Sequence record: OR896821.1
DNA length: 46,458 nt
From: Escherichia phage Phagiculus
Direction: 5' to 3' (one strand)
Under the pieces are notes generated by a model. The model saw only the letters and a program-made list of their open reading frames with translations. It was not told the DNA's origin and did not search any database. Of this stretch, positions 101-15,965 are shown piece by piece; position 1 is the stretch's first letter; the number at the start of each line of letters is the position of its first letter. The translations under genes were made by a program, and so were the position numbers.

Positions 101-3073
101 TTAATTGTAACCCTTAAGAAAATTATAAAGCCTACCGCCTTGCTGCGCTGACTTCTCAAGCTCCTCAGCGACAATCAGTCTCACACCGCTCTCAATCGCC
201 TTAGCTTCTCCATCTGAGTTGCTTGAGCCGCCAACATTGACCGTAACTCCGCCAACGTTAACAGATGTTAAGCCGCCGCCAACAAGACCGCCATTCGCAT
301 AACCAGCGCTTAGATTGCCAACTGAGCCGCCATTAGCATATCCACGCATTAGCTTGTAAAGGTTTCCAACGCCAATCCTTGAAGTTGCCTCTTTTGTAAA
401 TACAAACTCTCCTTTGTGAACCGTGCCAGCTGGTTCGTACTTGCCACCGTTACCAGTGTAGCCGCCATCAGCGAAACCTAAAGCAGATATTAGCCCACTG
501 CCAGAGCTAGCTGCCGAGCCGCCACCAAAACTGCTGATAGTTGACTCAATAGCTTTAACTATAAGTAATTGAGTAGCAATCTTAGCGATCTGCTGAAGTA
601 TTGACGCTGCAAACTCCTTAAAGTTCGCCTTACCAGTAGTGAGGAGGCTTGTGATATTGTCTGTAATTCCAGTTAATACACTCTTTGTTAGATCGTAGCT
701 TATTTGGGCGAGGTTAGTTGCTTCAGCTGTGTAATCTTTAAATGCATCACTGGCGCCAGCAAGGAAGTCAGACCTTGCTAAATCCTCCTGCTTATAGAAA
801 GCCTCCTGAGCATCCCTAATTGCTTTATAGTCAGGGGAGTCAAGACTTCCACCCCTATTTAGCTGGTAAGATTCAGCTTTCGCCCTTTCTTGATTTCTGG
901 CATTCTCTATAGACCCGCTACCCCTATTGGATAGAGCAGCAGTCTGAGCAGCTAATTCTCTAGCCTTTTTAAGGTTATCGTCCTGAAGTTTATTCGCCCT
1001 TTCCTGCAAAACAATCTGATCGCCAAGTTCAGCTTTCTGTCTTGCCAATTCGAGAACCTTATCTTTCTCAATGAGAAGTCTGGCCTGCTCTCTTTTTATT
1101 GTACCAGCGTCCCGGCGCTCCTCGAGGATTGCAAACTTAGCTTCTTCGGCGAACAGCTGCTTGCGTTCATTACTGATTACGTCGCTAATCTGGCGGTGAT
1201 CTTTAAGAACCCTAAGCTGAGCCTCTAATGCAAGGACTCCAGACTCGTAGCTCAGCGTCAAATCTCTTTGGCTACCTACACCCTCCTTGCGCTTCTTGTT
1301 GGATTCCTCAATATCCTTAAGCTCCTGCTCTCTTGCCTTCCTACGCTTTTCAAATTCAGCGTCTGACTCACCCGTCCTTTGCTTCTCATCCTGAGAAGGC
1401 GTTACATAACCTAACTCACCTTTACGAATCCTAGCATCTCGCTCAGCGATTGACTTGATTAGCTCCTGATTGGCCTTCTCTATACCCTGGTTCTGCTCCT
1501 CAAACTGCTTAATTAGATCACTACCCACTCCTTTGGCCCCTGGTATCTTCTGGAAGGCCTTTAGAGAGGAAATCAAAAAGTCGTTGATGAGAATGTCACC
1601 CTGACCAATAAACAAACTGATTTGCTCAATTGTTTTAGCAACAACATCAGTGATAAGGTTGAGAGCGCCAAGCGTCCTGTTTCCAATGTCAGTCCAAATT
1701 CTTGATATGAAGTTCCTGAAGCCCTGCCATGCTCGCTCAAGTGGTGTAAGTGATTCGGCAACTTTAGTAAGGCGATTCTCCATAACATCAGCGAATAACT
1801 TAGTGGCAGCCGTTACAGCTTGCGTTTCACCTTGCGTAACCCTGATTTGCTCAATGTATTTAAGCTGACCTGCGGTTAAGAAGTTAAACTGCTTATCTAG
1901 CTCAGCAAGACCTTTGACCGGGTCATTTGCAATCTTGTCGAAGCTCTTAACGATATCTTCAGCTGAGTCACCAGTTACTGTGGCCCATCTAGCGGTTGCC
2001 TCTGTGATAATAGAAATCTGCGCTACAGTGCGATTGCCGCTAGCAACCAAACCTTTGGCAATCTCTTGACCAAGCCCCTGAGTTGCACCAGCAGCTTCTG
2101 ACGCGTTCCTGGCAAGATTCTGTATCGCAGCAGCAGATAAATTCGCATTCTGCCCAGTCAGTGTAAGAGTCTTTTCAAGCTGCGCCGTATTCTGGTATGC
2201 CTGGTAAGCCGACAATCCTAAAGCACCAAGAGCTACACCAAGCGCGCCAGCTGCAACTATAAAAGGATTCAATGCTGCAAGTGCAAATCTGAAGGTGTTA
2301 GCCACACCGCCAAAGCTATCTTTAATCTGTCCACCCTGCTGGATTGCAATCAACCAGATTGGAATACCGCCAGCGAGTGAGGTCCCGATATCTGTAATTT
2401 GCGCTGGCAACTGCCTGATTGCGTTTCTATACTCACCAGCGCTAAGTCCTGACTTTCTGAATGCACCGGACTGAGCCGACAATGCCGCAGAAGCTCTATT
2501 TGATGCATCAGCTATCTGATTAATAATAGGCGCCGCCTGGCTTGAAACACCCAACTCAGCAGCGCGAAGCTTAAGTAATTCCTCTCGAGTTAGTGTCGCC
2601 GCCTGCGCCTCCGCCTGCAAAGACTTAAGGAATCTTTCTGCCTGAGTCGCCGCTGTAGCTTTTGCCTTTGATGCCTCTATCGCCGCTCTGCCTTCCTCTG
2701 TCAAGGCGCGCTGATTCGTTCTCAGGCGATTTGTTTGCGTCTCCAGTGCCTCGCTTAAGCGGTAGAACTCAGCCTCTGGAACAACTCCAGCCGTAAAAGC
2801 CTTGTCCAGTGAGTTCGCGGCTTCCTGCAACTTACGCAGCTTTGATGCGGTCGGGTCGATTGCTGATTGTAAAGACTGAAAGGCGCTACGCTGCTCAGAA
2901 AGATAACGAGCTGTATCTCTTGCTTGATTTTTTGCTACCTGTTCGGCGTTAACGAAGCTACTAATTCCAGCTGCAGCTTGCTCGTTTGCGCGCTTAAATT
3001 CCTGCAACGACCTAGTGCCCTGGTCTACCTGCCTTACGTCTACGCCTAATGTAATTCCGGCAAATTCAGCCAT
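101..3073 (-). CDS. tail tape measure protein
   Basis: about 990 aa, coiled-coil rich, Gly-rich C-terminus, directly downstream of chaperone G/GT and upstream of M-L-K-I-J; GGAGG RBS before ATG at 3073 (ORF-track start at 3121 lies upstream of the terminator-like hairpin). Confidence 0.85.
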
Positions 3074-3083
3074 ATTACCTCCA

Positions 3084-3110
3084 TAAAAAAACCTCCACGA
3101 GGGAGGTTTA
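3084..3110 (-). terminator. intrinsic terminator-like hairpin between chaperone GT stop and tape measure start
   Basis: minus strand ACCTCC-CTCGT-GGAGGT followed by TTTTTTT, then GGAGG RBS. Confidence 0.45.
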
Positions 3111-3434
3111 TTTCTTAACATGCTGCATCATATCCAGAGCCTTATACTCAAGTATGCGCAGGTCGTTTAAAACCATCTCTTTATCTTTGACATTATACAC
3201 ATCAAAGAGAAATGGTAGTACTGAATAATCTAATCCTGTCGCGCCGTTCATCCCGACTCGCCATTGAGTAGCGGAAGCCTGATAGATATTCCATGCGCAC
3301 ATCATGTCATCATCGAAGAATAATTCCTCTGGCCCTTCATCTTCGTAATCTGAGCGGCGCATACCAATAGCTTCAAGTTCCGCATCTGTAGGCTCCTTCT
3401 GATACTGGAGGAATACGGCGCGTTTTAGTTTTTT
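3108..3434 (-). CDS. tail assembly chaperone T-frame extension (expressed as G-T fusion by -1 frameshift)
   Basis: -1 frame open from slippery site to stop at 3108; covers the ORF-track 84-aa ORF. Confidence 0.6.
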
Positions 3435-3742
3435 GCTCGCTGACCTGCGAGTGCCTGCATATATGCGTTAGTTAACGCCAGTACCGAAGCAGGGAAAAGA
3501 GAAACTAATTCCTCGATATTTTCATCATTAAAATCTTCCTCAAGGTTCCAGTCAGAGCAGATTTCCTTAACGAAGTCGTAATCCTTCAACCCTTCAGTCT
3601 GGAAGATTTCCTGAATCTCTTTAGCTTTACGGTGCTTTGCTGTAAAGATTACCTCAGCTTCCTCGCCGTTAATCATCTGGAATTTAACAGGCAGCTTAAA
3701 ATCAGGTAAAGCGCCAAGTGTTAATTTGAATTTTGCAGCCAT
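3425..3742 (-). CDS. tail assembly chaperone (lambda gpG-like)
   Basis: 105-aa acidic protein directly upstream of tape measure; AGGAG RBS; ends in frameshift site. Confidence 0.65.
   Translation of the reverse strand: MAAKFKLTLGALPDFKLPVKFQMINGEEAEVIFTAKHRKAKEIQEIFQTEGLKDYDFVKEICSDWNLEEDFNDENIEELVSLFPASVLALTNAYMQALAGQRAKN
3428..3434 (-). other. programmed -1 ribosomal frameshift slippery heptamer A_AAA_AAC
   Basis: minus-strand AAAAAAC immediately before the G stop codon; -1 frame continues open for about 107 codons. Confidence 0.6.
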
Positions 3743-3788
3743 CTCTCGATACTCCTATTGTTTGTTTGAGGTTTCTATTGTATTCATT

Positions 3789-4490
3789 TTATTTACTGTT
3801 AGCAAGGTATAGCGCTTTAGCAAAGCCTCTTGGGGTAAGGCTTCTAATCATCTTAGTTCTTGCGCTCTTCCCGCCAAGTTTAGCCCAGCCTGGATTATCG
3901 GATGAGTTAGCATTAACCATCTTATCCTCAGGCATAACAAAGCCGTTTCCAGTCCAGAGGCAAGTTTTCTTATTGTAAGTATCCCTTCCAGGAATTATCT
4001 CAGGGAAGAACGGGTGCTTGTCATCCTCATCAAGATAGCCACCAAAATCACAAGGATGGAAAGTGTGATTTGGCCTTCTCCACATCGATGACAATACGCT
4101 AACTGGGTTCTCTATCATATATGGAGCGTTAAAGTGATTGGCTATATACTCAGCAATTCTGCAAGTTGACACCGCCTTGCGCTGAAAATCAGGGTCTTTT
4201 TCACCCTTAGATTTAAAGTGTCTTGAACCCGATACAGCAAGGTCAGTACACGGAGGGAATGCAATTATTAAATCTGGCTCACCAAAATAGCCTTTAACAG
4301 CCAGGTCCGCGAAAGATGAATCAATCCATGCATTAATGTATGTTATGTTCTCATGCTGAATCTTTGAGTTGTATTTGGCGTAGTCACCGTGGTCAGCGTC
4401 GTCATAGTTAAAACAAATCACCTTGTGACCGTTTTCTGCCCACGGCTGAGCTGCGATACCTGAACCATCAAATAAGCTGAATACTAACAT
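3789..4490 (-). CDS. DNA (cytosine-5) methyltransferase-like protein
   Basis: motif I-like LFDGSGI, motif IV-like FPPCTD with Pro-Cys, motif VI-like IENPVS; GAGGG RBS before ATG at 4490; preceded by terminator. Confidence 0.5.
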   Translation of the reverse strand: MLVFSLFDGSGIAAQPWAENGHKVICFNYDDADHGDYAKYNSKIQHENITYINAWIDSSFADLAVKGYFGEPDLIIAFPPCTDLAVSGSRHFKSKGEKDPDFQRKAVSTCRIAEYIANHFNAPYMIENPVSVLSSMWRRPNHTFHPCDFGGYLDEDDKHPFFPEIIPGRDTYNKKTCLWTGNGFVMPEDKMVNANSSDNPGWAKLGGKSARTKMIRSLTPRGFAKALYLANSK

Positions 4491-4525
4491 TATTAAACCC
4501 TCTTGTTTTCGATGGGTCCAATATA

Positions 4526-4552
4526 ACAAAAAAGACCCCTAAGGGTCTTTGC
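4526..4552 (-). terminator. intrinsic terminator after major tail protein gene
   Basis: minus strand AGACCC-TTAG-GGGTCT followed by TTTTTT. Confidence 0.6.
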
Positions 4553-4564
4553 AAAAAGTGCTAT

Positions 4565-5215
4565 TTATGCTGCCAGGAAGCTGTAGCGTCCTCGTACCGT
4601 AATTGCTACGGATACAGTTTCGATTTCGTTAACAGAAACGTTTGGCGTTTCGTTGAATGCGATAGTGCCAGTCCACAAGCGAACTTCACCAGCCTTAGGT
4701 ACGTATGCGCGAATCGCCAGAAGTGCACCAGTCTCATCGTAGTTGCGAAGGATTGGGTAAATCGGGTTGGTGAAGTCGTGCGCAAAGGTGTAAGTGGTGT
4801 TAACAGCTGACTTATAAGTCGGAATCTGCTGCTCACGGTCATCTGCCAGACACTGATAGGTAACAAACTGCTGTTCACCGCCGTCAGTAGAAACATCCTG
4901 AATACAAGGCATTTCATACCAGCTAAGAATCTTGTAGATTACCGCGGTGCCGCCAGCAGGGAACTGCATAACGTCGCTAGTGTCGATACCTTCGACGGTA
5001 ATAGTTGTTGCAGTGGTGCTAACTACTCGCAGTTGCTTCTCGGAAAGCTTAGACCAGCTTGAGGATTCAACAACGATAAAGTCACCACTTGCAAAATCAG
5101 AAGCGTCAGCAACCGTCATTACTGGTTGGGCTGCGTTGCTTACTGCGGTTACCTGAACTGATTCTCCAGCTGAACCCTGGATAAAGATTTGAGTACCGTT
5201 ACTCAAGTGTGCCAT
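4565..5215 (-). CDS. major tail (tube) protein
   Basis: position between neck/tail-completion genes and chaperones; AAGGAG RBS before ATG at 5215; flanked downstream by strong terminator. Confidence 0.55.
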   Translation of the reverse strand: MAHLSNGTQIFIQGSAGESVQVTAVSNAAQPVMTVADASDFASGDFIVVESSSWSKLSEKQLRVVSTTATTITVEGIDTSDVMQFPAGGTAVIYKILSWYEMPCIQDVSTDGGEQQFVTYQCLADDREQQIPTYKSAVNTTYTFAHDFTNPIYPILRNYDETGALLAIRAYVPKAGEVRLWTGTIAFNETPNVSVNEIETVSVAITVRGRYSFLAA

Positions 5216-5229
5216 GTAAATCTCCTTAA

Positions 5230-5628
5230 TTAATCCATACGTACGTAGAATCGGATTGGGAAGAACCAACCAGACTGTGATTTAACCGCTGGGTGTACCA
5301 CCCCCCCTTCATATATATATCCGGTGCTTAGCATTGTACCATCGGCGAAAGCTTCTGACAATGACCCCGCTAATTGGCGAGCCCTATCAATTCCAAAACC
5401 TGGAGGGAAGAACAAAGAGACCTGAACCATACCAATATAGTATCTGCAAGTTCTCTGAAGACCCCATGTAACGGTATCAGCTTCAGTGTAATCAAACTTT
5501 AGCCACATCGAGCCATTCTTTGGCGGTGTAAAGTTGCAGTTTTCGTAAGAAACTGGCAGCGAGCCAGTAATATCAACAGCAACCCTGCTTACCAATTCGC
5601 GCGCAGCGATAGACATTTCATAGTGCAT
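5230..5628 (-). CDS. tail terminator / tail completion-like protein
   Basis: GGAAGG RBS; position in neck-tail block; start overlaps stop of upstream gene. Confidence 0.35.
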   Translation of the reverse strand: MHYEMSIAARELVSRVAVDITGSLPVSYENCNFTPPKNGSMWLKFDYTEADTVTWGLQRTCRYYIGMVQVSLFFPPGFGIDRARQLAGSLSEAFADGTMLSTGYIYEGGVVHPAVKSQSGWFFPIRFYVRMD

Positions 5629-15889: not shown

Positions 15890-15965
15890 TGGCGTTCCGC
15901 GCTGGACTCGAACCAGCAACTGAGACTTAGGAGGTCTCTGCGTTATCCCGTTACGCCAGCAGAAC
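15890..15965 (-). tRNA. tRNA-Arg (anticodon CCU)
   Basis: hand-folded cloverleaf: 7-bp acceptor GTTCTGC/GCGGAAC, D-stem GCGT/ACGC, anticodon stem GAGAC/GTCTC with loop CTCCTAA, T-arm GCTGG-TTCGAGT-CCAGC, discriminator G, encoded CCA. Confidence 0.8.

What the first reader, a model, noticed from the sequence alone, without database searches (positions are those of the whole stretch)
3425..3434. Programmed -1 frameshift site A_AAA_AAC at the end of the chaperone G-like gene
The last sense codons of the G-like ORF form the slippery heptamer AAAAAAC directly before the stop, and the -1 frame stays open for about 107 codons to position 3108, recreating the conserved G/GT tail-chaperone frameshift of siphophages.
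Basis: partly seen in the sequence, partly recalled or inferred. Interest (0 to 1): 0.45.

Follow-up and report, generated by a model that had tools for sequence, protein, structure and literature searches.

The report
Tail chaperone G/GT frameshift site
This is the expected -1 ribosomal frameshift site of a T1-like phage tail-assembly chaperone gene, which lets one gene make a short and a long protein; it is real and strongly conserved, but it is an ordinary member of a well-known class.

Summary
On the minus strand a 105-aa ORF (3742..3425, Pfam Phage_TAC_4, E=3e-35) ends GCA AAA AAC TAA. The in-frame heptamer A_AAA_AAC is 3434..3428 and the stop is 3427..3425. The -1 frame stays open to the stop at 3110..3108 and matches Pfam DUF1799. 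The predicted fusion is 211 aa (24.4 kDa).

The genes lie between the tail tube and tape-measure genes. Of 82 related Drexlerviridae-type loci, 80 keep a slip motif directly against the stop:
- 64 have A_AAA_AAC.
- 8 have G_GGA_AAC.
- 7 have A_AAG_GTC.
- 1 has A_AAA_GCC.

Synonymous sites inside the heptamer are frozen, while neighbouring ones vary. The 21 codons between the G stop and the first ATG of the T frame evolve as coding sequence (10 synonymous versus 2 non-synonymous changes against phage Sd1). They contain no start codon.

The window has no significant downstream RNA structure and no conserved upstream Shine-Dalgarno-like element. Many T1/TLS-like relatives do carry a strong predicted hairpin.

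Verdict: a programmed -1 frameshift of the lambda G/GT kind, inferred by comparison and not shown experimentally. It is a new member of a known kind and of low interest.

The parts
3425..3742 (-). G gene: tail assembly chaperone, 105 aa (12.0 kDa), stop codon included
   Evidence: Translation. Pfam Phage_TAC_4 E=2.9e-35. phrog_569 and phrog_17368. 92-94% aa identity to phages Sd1 and C119.
3428..3434 (-). Slippery heptamer A_AAA_AAC in X_XXY_YYZ register; last two sense codons of G are AAA and AAC
   Evidence: Sequence. The same heptamer is at the same place in 64 of 82 relatives and G_GGA_AAC in 8. Synonymous sites inside it are frozen.
3425..3427 (-). G stop codon TAA directly 3' of the heptamer; possible 'shifty stop' stimulator (inferred)
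   Evidence: A stop directly abuts the motif in 80 of 80 usable relatives: TAA 70, TAG 8, TGA 2.
3108..3428 (-). T segment in the -1 frame: 106 codons from CTA 3428..3426 to the stop TAA 3110..3108. Base 3428 is read twice. The GT fusion is 211 aa (24.4 kDa).
   Evidence: Translation. Pfam DUF1799 E=5e-14. phrog_17368 positions 107-211 and phrog_680. Sizes.
3363..3425 (-). Linker of the T frame upstream of its first ATG (3362..3360): coding, but with no start codon of its own
   Evidence: Against Sd1 there are 10 synonymous and 2 non-synonymous codon differences in the T frame, versus 0-1 synonymous of 11-12 in the other frames. There is no ATG/GTG/TTG. The ATG at 3362 is present in only 22 of 86 counted sequences (window and relatives); Leu codons occupy that position elsewhere.
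4565..5269 (-). Tail tube (major tail) protein gene upstream; ORF limits are mechanical and the true start is probably about 18 codons in
   Evidence: Pfam Phage_tail_3 E=4e-70. phrog_584 E=2e-88, matching from residue 19.
101..3073 (-). Tape measure protein gene downstream. The probable start is ATG 3073, preceded by GGAGG; the mechanical ORF starts at 3121.
   Evidence: Pfam TMP_2 and Tape_meas_lam_C. phrog_24 E=4e-241. Sequence. The 35-nt spacing from the T stop is the same as in relatives.
3089..3109 (-). Terminator-like hairpin plus T-run between the T stop and the tape-measure start
   Evidence: T1 has an annotated terminator at the same place.

Best explanation

Most ribosomes translate G (3742..3428) and terminate at TAA 3427..3425, giving the 12-kDa chaperone. 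A minority slip back one base on A_AAA_AAC: tRNA-Lys moves from AAA to AAA and tRNA-Asn from AAC to AAA. Those ribosomes read CTA instead of TAA and continue for 106 codons to 3110..3108. The product is a 24.4-kDa G-T fusion with the junction ...GQRAKN-LKRAVF...

By analogy with lambda gpG/gpGT, many G copies would coat the tape-measure protein. The rare GT would use its T domain to recruit the tail tube protein, and the frameshift rate would fix the G:GT ratio.

In this window the signal is the heptamer plus the adjacent stop codon only. I found no significant 3' RNA structure and no conserved 5' Shine-Dalgarno-like element, so a low rate is expected.

Shown here: the sequence anatomy, the family membership, the conservation, and coding selection in the -1 frame without a start codon. 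Inferred: ribosomal rather than transcriptional slippage, the efficiency, the role of the stop codon, and the protein functions.
For: - Register and frames.
- Family hits to PF08748 and PF08809, and one PHROG profile (17368) spanning both halves.
- Synteny of tail terminator, tube, G, T and tape measure.
- Uniqueness: it is the only heptamer among 282 in the window with this ORF geometry.
- Conservation in 82 relatives down to 33% aa identity: A_AAA_AAC in 64, G_GGA_AAC in 8, A_AAG_GTC in 7 and A_AAA_GCC in 1. All abut the stop. The -1 frame is open for 103-110 codons; the +1 frame is open 4-38 codons in 72 of the 80 usable relatives and 62-67 codons in seven of the eight G_GGA_AAC loci.
- Frozen synonymous sites: the four-fold site of codon -3 always equals the next two bases (A in 62, G in 5 of 67 distinct sequences), whereas four-fold sites at codons -9, -7, -6 and -4 use all four bases. 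Asn is always AAC (61 of 61), although AAT would keep Leu in the T frame.
- Linker codons between the G stop and ATG 3362: 10 synonymous versus 2 non-synonymous against Sd1, third-position divergence 0.56 versus 0.26 and 0.18, and no start codon. The ATG is not conserved.
- T1's own record can only place a 55-aa ORF for the T part.
[quoted passage not shown] The lambda G/GT model is reviewed in PMC5009743. T1-like phages Stevie and U136B were annotated with this frameshift (PMC4319613 and PMC8104045).
Against: - There is no experimental evidence for the fusion protein in this phage, nor, as far as the searched papers show, in any T1-like phage.
- A_AAA_AAC is a poor shifter in E. coli (PMC4066793).
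- The window lacks a significant downstream structure. The 100-nt fold gives z=+0.21. The 55-nt fold gives -10.1 kcal/mol, and 25% of synonymous resamples are as stable.
- Seven close relatives (the Rogunavirus group) lack the full heptamer and keep only A_AAG. The heptamer as such is therefore not indispensable in the family.
- None of the seven related GenBank/RefSeq records I opened, including T1, annotates a joined CDS.
Confidence: 0.9

Rival explanations
1. There is no recoding. The -1 ORF is a separate gene translated from its own ATG at 3362 into an 84-aa protein, as most GenBank records of relatives annotate it.
For: An ATG exists at 3362, and Sd1, C119, Sf12, phiEB49 and Opt-79 are annotated with a separate 84-aa CDS. 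The Pfam DUF1799 match starts only two residues before that Met.
Against: The 21 codons upstream of that ATG are under purifying selection in the T frame and have no start codon. The ATG is a Leu codon in most relatives. phrog_17368 and phrog_680 align to residues upstream of the Met. No GGAG/GAGG/AGGA motif precedes the ATG (sequence). This reading does not explain the frozen synonymous sites in the heptamer.
Confidence: 0.04
2. The fusion arises from transcriptional slippage. RNA polymerase adds one A in the A6 run, and the mRNA then encodes ...AKK-LKR... in one frame.
For: The site is a run of six A. Homopolymer runs here are clearly length-unstable in databases: two relatives carry A5 and a Providencia prophage remnant carries A8, which fuses the frames.
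Against: From my own knowledge, not tested here: E. coli RNA polymerase slips appreciably only on runs of about 8-9 or more A/T. Eight relatives use G_GGA_AAC and seven use A_AAG_GTC at the same place. These have no long run but are ribosomal slip motifs. The conserved register (X_XXY_YYZ in the zero frame) and the conserved C after the run are features of tRNA re-pairing, not of polymerase stuttering.
Confidence: 0.04
3. The arrangement is a chance overlap or a decaying gene with no functional second product.
For: The heptamer is not over-represented in the window.
Against: The configuration is unique in the window. It is conserved across 80 of 82 relatives at 33-95% aa identity, with an open and conserved T frame.
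Confidence: 0.01

Closest known systems
Phage lambda gpG/gpGT tail assembly chaperone frameshift (Levin, Hendrix and Casjens 1993; Xu, Hendrix and Duda 2004, 2013, 2014; reviewed in PMC5009743)
   Same: Two small ORFs sit between the tail tube gene and the tape-measure gene. The second ORF is in the -1 frame and is reached by a slip on an X_XXY_YYZ heptamer near the end of the first. No RNA stimulator is evident. The products are of similar size: lambda G is 140 aa and T is 144 aa.
   Different: There is no detectable sequence similarity (BLASTP E=0.065 and 0.03 in single comparisons), and the Pfam families differ (PF08748/PF08809). The heptamer is A_AAA_AAC, not G_GGA_AAG. Here it touches the stop codon, whereas lambda's lies 16 nt before the G stop. 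A methyltransferase-like gene separates the tube gene from G.
T1-like (Drexlerviridae) tape-measure chaperone pair: T1 gp40/gp39, TLS TfmB, Rtp35/36, Sd1 gp36/gp35, Stevie, U136B
   Same: Same protein families, same gene order, same heptamer and same stop position. G is 92-94% identical to Sd1 and C119, and the G-T region is about 80% identical at nucleotide level. The frameshift has been noted for Stevie and U136B.
   Different: The window lacks the strong predicted hairpin found 6-7 nt 3' of the site in T1, TLS and many others. It keeps the full heptamer, unlike the Rogunavirus group, which has A_AAG_GTC. It carries an 822-nt insert with a methyltransferase-like ORF upstream of G.
IS1-family transposase -1 frameshift on A_AAA_AAC
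   Same: Same low-efficiency heptamer used in enterobacteria. One A_AAA_AAC IS gene cluster is a proven frameshift case with no established stimulator. The purpose is to make a small amount of a fusion protein (PMC4066793).
   Different: The proteins and the biology are unrelated. I did not check where the IS1 insA stop lies relative to the motif.
E. coli dnaX -1 frameshift (A_AAA_AAG with an upstream SD-like element and a downstream hairpin)
   Same: A lysine-codon-based heptamer in the same host group.
   Different: dnaX is high-efficiency and has two stimulators. Here the last base is C, the third positions of codons -7 and -6 vary freely so no SD-like element is conserved, and the window has no significant hairpin.

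Membership tests
Siphophage tail assembly chaperone G/GT programmed -1 frameshift (lambda paradigm) | Two small ORFs located between the tail tube (major tail) gene and the tape-measure gene | tested here: met
   Order on the minus strand: tube 5269..4565, a methyltransferase-like ORF, G 3742..3425, T to 3108, tape measure from 3073. The extra ORF between the tube gene and G is an insertion absent from 76 of 86 related loci counted.
Siphophage tail assembly chaperone G/GT programmed -1 frameshift (lambda paradigm) | The second ORF is in the -1 frame, overlaps the end of the first, and lacks an independent conserved start | tested here: met
   The -1 frame is open from 13 codons before the stop to 106 codons after it. 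There is no start codon before ATG 3362, that ATG is not conserved, and the linker is under coding selection.
Siphophage tail assembly chaperone G/GT programmed -1 frameshift (lambda paradigm) | In-register slippery sequence inside the overlap, conserved among relatives | tested here: met
   A_AAA_AAC at 3434..3428. 80 of 82 relatives have a slip motif at the same position. Synonymous sites are frozen.
Siphophage tail assembly chaperone G/GT programmed -1 frameshift (lambda paradigm) | A fusion protein is made at a low, fixed ratio to G (about 1:30 in lambda) | not testable with these tools
   This needs a western blot, mass spectrometry or a reporter assay. The lambda value comes from PMC5009743.
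Siphophage tail assembly chaperone G/GT programmed -1 frameshift (lambda paradigm) | G binds the tape-measure protein, T binds the tail tube protein, and neither is in the virion | not testable with these tools
   These are biochemical properties, inferred here only by analogy.
Pfam PF08748 (Phage_TAC_4) with PF08809 (DUF1799), the T1 gp40/gp39 type | Score above the curated gathering thresholds | tested here: met
   121.6 bits against 21.1 and 52.7 bits against 26.
Lambda gpG / gpT sequence families | Detectable sequence homology to lambda G and T | tested here: not met
   BLASTP E=0.065 and 0.03 in single-pair comparisons. No lambda-type Pfam family was listed. The window pair works like lambda G/GT but is not a sequence-level member.
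Tail assembly chaperone fold (spiral TAC fold of solved chaperones) | Structural similarity of the G domain to solved TAC structures | tested here: inconclusive
   The single-sequence AlphaFold2 model has mean pLDDT 48.9, too poor for a fold search. There is no PDB relative by sequence.
Stimulated -1 frameshift sites (dnaX/IS3 type) | Downstream hairpin or pseudoknot and/or an upstream SD-like element | tested here: not met
   Window fold z=+0.21. Against synonymous resamples z=-0.72. RNAalifold on 67 sequences returned an empty structure, and upstream third positions are unconstrained. Many relatives do have a hairpin.
Transcriptional slippage sites | Long homopolymer run (about 8-9 or more A/T) as the conserved element | tested here: not met
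   The run is A6. 15 relatives have G_GGA_AAC or A_AAG_GTC instead. The length requirement comes from my own knowledge.

The most novel reading that the evidence does not exclude
The family shows a distinct 'heptamer-against-the-stop' form of the G/GT frameshift. The distance from slip motif to stop is 0 nt in all 72 relatives that have a full heptamer. The stop codon also stays at the same position in the 8 relatives that keep only the first half of the motif. This holds across several motif types, and with or without a 3' hairpin. In SEA-PHAGES chaperone genes the average distance is 26 nt (PMC10885494). In this reading, slow decoding of the stop codon (a 'shifty stop' with competition from release factors) is itself the stimulator. 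That would explain how a heptamer that shifts poorly in E. coli, with no RNA structure in this window, still gives enough GT.
Probability: 0.3. Interest if true: 0.4.

Novelty: new member of a known kind. Interest (0 to 1): 0.2.

Why it matters
The practical value is in annotation. The G and T ORFs of this phage should be annotated as one recoded gene (G plus a joined G-T product), not as two genes. The seven related public records I opened, including T1, still annotate them separately or truncate T.

The comparison also gives a clean natural series for studying -1 frameshift signals in enterobacteria: the same site with the full heptamer, with a tetramer only, or with G_GGA_AAC, and with or without a hairpin. 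It does not open a new question.

Tried and rejected
- **Structure of G.** Single-sequence AlphaFold2 gave mean pLDDT 48.9, unusable, so I ran no fold search.
- **PDB sequence search.** The 211-aa fusion found nothing at E up to 1.
- **Large protein search.** The search for homologous proteins with the fusion returned a single hit, a Providencia prophage remnant. No alignment could be built for a better model, and I did not spend further large searches.
- **Downstream RNA structure in the window.** The fold is no better than shuffles or synonymous resamples. RNAalifold on 67 sequences was empty.
- **Covariation test of the T1-type hairpin.** On 54 distinct sequences it was inconclusive: 70.2% of cells paired against 68.5% shuffled, and 77 of 500 shuffles reached the covariation score. 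All variable stem positions pair with amino-acid-constrained bases.
- **Pseudoknot claimed for Rogue1.** My folds of the Rogunavirus group do not support the 'downstream pseudoknot' of PMC3496638: z is +0.9 to +2.2. Pseudoknots as such were not modelled.
- **Upstream SD-like stimulator.** Rejected, because the third positions of the Ala and Gly codons that would form it vary freely.
- **Xu et al. 2004.** The paper is not held in the library, so I could not check whether T1 was in their table.

Full report
**1. Observation**

The feature lies on the minus strand. An ORF starts at ATG 3742, preceded by AGGAG, and ends ...GGT CAG CGA GCA AAA AAC TAA.
- The heptamer A_AAA_AAC is 3434..3428, in the canonical X_XXY_YYZ register.
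- The stop TAA is 3427..3425.
- The -1 frame read from 3434 gives [12 protein letters not shown]...HVKK and stops at 3110..3108.
- After a tandem slip the fusion would be G (105 aa) plus 106 residues, which is 211 aa. The sizes are 12.0 kDa for G and 24.4 kDa for GT.

The motif alone is not rare: 10 copies in the window against 13.2 expected. Its geometry is unique. Of 282 X_XXY_YYZ heptamers on both strands, only this one combines a long open zero frame upstream with a -1 frame that runs far beyond the zero-frame stop.

**2. What the genes are**

- G matches Pfam Phage_TAC_4 (PF08748, E=2.9e-35).
- The -1 product matches DUF1799 (PF08809, E=5e-14).
- One PHROG profile of 213 positions (phrog_17368) is matched by G at positions 2-107 and by the -1 product at 107-211. 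Fused proteins of exactly this design therefore define that family.
- Upstream lie the tail completion, tail terminator and tail tube genes. Downstream lies the tape-measure gene.

The window is a Drexlerviridae-type phage related to the Rogunavirinae. The best match, Shigella phage Sd1, is about 77% identical over 41% of the first 25 kb and about 80% identical in the G-T region.

**3. Conservation**

I collected 82 related loci: 80 from IMG/VR using a G alignment, plus C119 and Opt-79. They include T1, TLS and Rtp, and G identity runs from 95% down to 33%.

| Sequence at the end of G | Loci |
|---|---|
| A_AAA_AAC + stop | 64 |
| G_GGA_AAC + TAG | 8 |
| GCA AAG GTC TAA (only the A_AAG tetramer) | 7 |
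| GCA AAA GCC TAA | 1 |
| Run of five A, changing the frame relation | 2 |

The two A5 cases are probably homopolymer sequencing errors. One of them has a second frameshift inside G.

In the 80 usable loci the stop directly follows the last codon of the motif position. The -1 frame is open for 103-110 codons. The +1 frame is open for only 4-38 codons in most, though it reaches 62-67 codons in seven of the eight G_GGA_AAC loci.

Among 67 distinct sequences:
- The four-fold degenerate third base of codon -3 always equals the following two bases (A in 62, G in 5).
- Four-fold sites at codons -9, -7, -6 and -4 use all four bases.
- Asn is always AAC (61 of 61), although AAT would preserve Leu (TTA) in the T frame.

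This is selection on nucleotides, not on amino acids, which is what a recoding signal predicts.

**4. The T frame is coding from the junction on and has no start**

The T-frame peptide LKRAV(Y/F)L.YQK.PTD.EL..(V/I)G is conserved from the first codon after the slip.

In the 21 codons between the G stop and the window's first T-frame ATG (3362), the window differs from Sd1 by 10 synonymous and 2 non-synonymous codon changes in the T frame. In the other two frames only 0-1 of 11-12 changes are synonymous. Across 58 distinct linkers, divergence per site is 0.26, 0.18 and 0.56 at codon positions 1, 2 and 3.

There is no ATG, GTG or TTG in the T frame from its upstream stop to 3362. That ATG is present in only 22 of 86 counted sequences; the others carry Leu codons there. 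In T1 the annotators could place only a 55-aa ORF.

This argues strongly against independent initiation. Even so, none of the seven related records I opened (Sd1, C119, Sf12, phiEB49, Rtp, T1, Opt-79) carries a joined CDS.

**5. Stimulators**

In the window:
- The 100 nt from the heptamer on fold no better than shuffles (z=+0.21).
- The 55 nt after the heptamer give -10.1 kcal/mol, and 25% of synonymous-codon resamples are as stable.
- No SD-like element is conserved upstream, because the third positions of the relevant codons vary freely.

The window's signal is therefore the heptamer plus the adjacent stop.

About 30 of the distinct relatives, including T1 and TLS, carry a strong two-part hairpin (GGGCGGUUUAUCUG...CAGAAACCGCCC) starting 6-7 nt after the heptamer. 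Its stability is -14 to -19.6 kcal/mol, against -5.5 to -7.5 for resamples (z -2.4 to -4.9). The distant G_GGA_AAC group has a hairpin of different sequence at the same place.

Covariation cannot confirm it, because every variable stem base pairs with an amino-acid-constrained base. The hairpin remains a candidate stimulator that some lineages have and this one lacks.

**6. Mechanism and comparison**

Sharma et al. [quoted passage not shown] One A_AAA_AAC IS cluster is a proven case with no established stimulator. A_AAG is the best tetramer. These are exactly the three motif types found in this phage family.

The lambda model comes from the review PMC5009743. G and GT are made at about 30:1, G binds the tape-measure protein, and T binds the tube protein.

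Lambda's own site, G_GGA_AAG, lies 16 nt before the G stop. Lambda G and T have no detectable sequence similarity to the window's proteins. The window therefore works like lambda G/GT but belongs to the T1 gp40/gp39 sequence families.

The frameshift has been mentioned for T1-like phages in genome announcements: Stevie (PMC4319613) and U136B (PMC8104045). It was proposed for Rogue1 (PMC3496638). I found no experimental demonstration.

**7. Rivals**

- Independent initiation of T is contradicted by section 4.
- Transcriptional slippage would give the same frame with an AKK-L junction. It is unlikely because the run is only A6, and because 15 relatives use non-homopolymeric ribosomal slip motifs at the same position.
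- Chance is excluded by the conservation.

**8. Verdict**

This is a real, conserved programmed -1 frameshift site of the tail-assembly-chaperone class. It is a new member of a known kind.

The one mildly unusual trait is shared with the whole T1-like family: the motif always abuts the stop codon. In SEA-PHAGES chaperone genes the average distance is 26 nt (PMC10885494). A stimulatory role for the stop is possible but untested.

Noticed in passing
window 3789-4529 (- strand): A 246-aa DNA-methyltransferase-like ORF (phrog_757 E=2e-88; weak Pfam DNA_methylase hit) sits between the tail tube gene and G. The tube-to-G gap is 822 nt here. It is 50-150 nt in 76 of 86 related loci counted and 400-530 nt in Rtp-like phages. 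The homologous gene in phage tonijn lies in the early region next to a helicase. It looks like a moron-type insertion downstream of the tube-gene terminator.
   Followed up: partly
window 4531-4550, 3089-3109 and 3777-3805 (- strand): Terminator-like hairpins with T-runs lie right after the tube gene and right after the T stop, and a promoter-like site lies upstream of G. T1 has annotated terminators at the two equivalent places. G-T is thus bracketed by leaky terminators, which may help set tube: chaperone: tape-measure ratios.
   Followed up: no
L055:1806-1865 (T1), L043, L024, L027-L049, L074, L076; also L078-L082: A strong predicted hairpin 6-7 nt 3' of the slip site occurs in T1/TLS-like relatives (-14 to -19.6 kcal/mol, z -2.4 to -4.9 against synonymous resamples). 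A hairpin of different sequence occupies the same place in the G_GGA_AAC group. It is absent from the window, Sd1, the Rogunavirus group and Rtp-like phages. Covariation was not demonstrable.
   Followed up: partly
L002:1803-1812 (C119), also L003, L004, L009-L011, L087; L068:1431-1440: The Rogunavirus group has GCA AAG GTC TAA and L068 has GCA AAA GCC TAA. The second half of the heptamer is lost, but A_AAR and the stop position are kept, so these phages would rely on a single-tRNA-Lys slip. The 'downstream pseudoknot' proposed for Rogue1 (PMC3496638) is not supported by my folds (z +0.9 to +2.2).
   Followed up: partly
L045:1771-1920 and L075:1501-1920: Two IMG/VR genomes have only five A (GTAAAAACTAA). 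That puts T in the +1 frame relative to G. L075 also has another frameshift inside G. Homopolymer sequencing errors are the likely cause.
   Followed up: partly
L089:2915-3519 (Providencia alcalifaciens LS483467.1): In a prophage remnant the run is A8 (CGC GAA AAA AAA CTA), so G and T are fused in frame (172-aa protein P0001). The N-terminus of G is itself frameshifted. No tape-measure gene follows; umuD/umuC-like genes do. This is a decaying tail module.
   Followed up: partly
L086 (T1 NC_005833) and RefSeq copies of Sd1, Rogue1 and others: RefSeq names both G and T 'tail length tape measure protein' and annotates no join. T1 gp39 is called as 55 aa only. These are annotation errors that propagate.
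   Followed up: no
window 3071-3121 (- strand): The mechanical tape-measure ORF starts at ATG 3121, inside the T gene. The likely true start is ATG 3073, 5 nt after GGAGG and 35 nt after the T stop, the same spacing as in relatives.
   Followed up: partly
window 15890-15965 (- strand): A single tRNA-Arg(CCT) gene. Rogue1 and JK06 also carry a single arginyl-tRNA (PMC3496638). It is not related to the Lys/Asn codons of the slip site.
   Followed up: no
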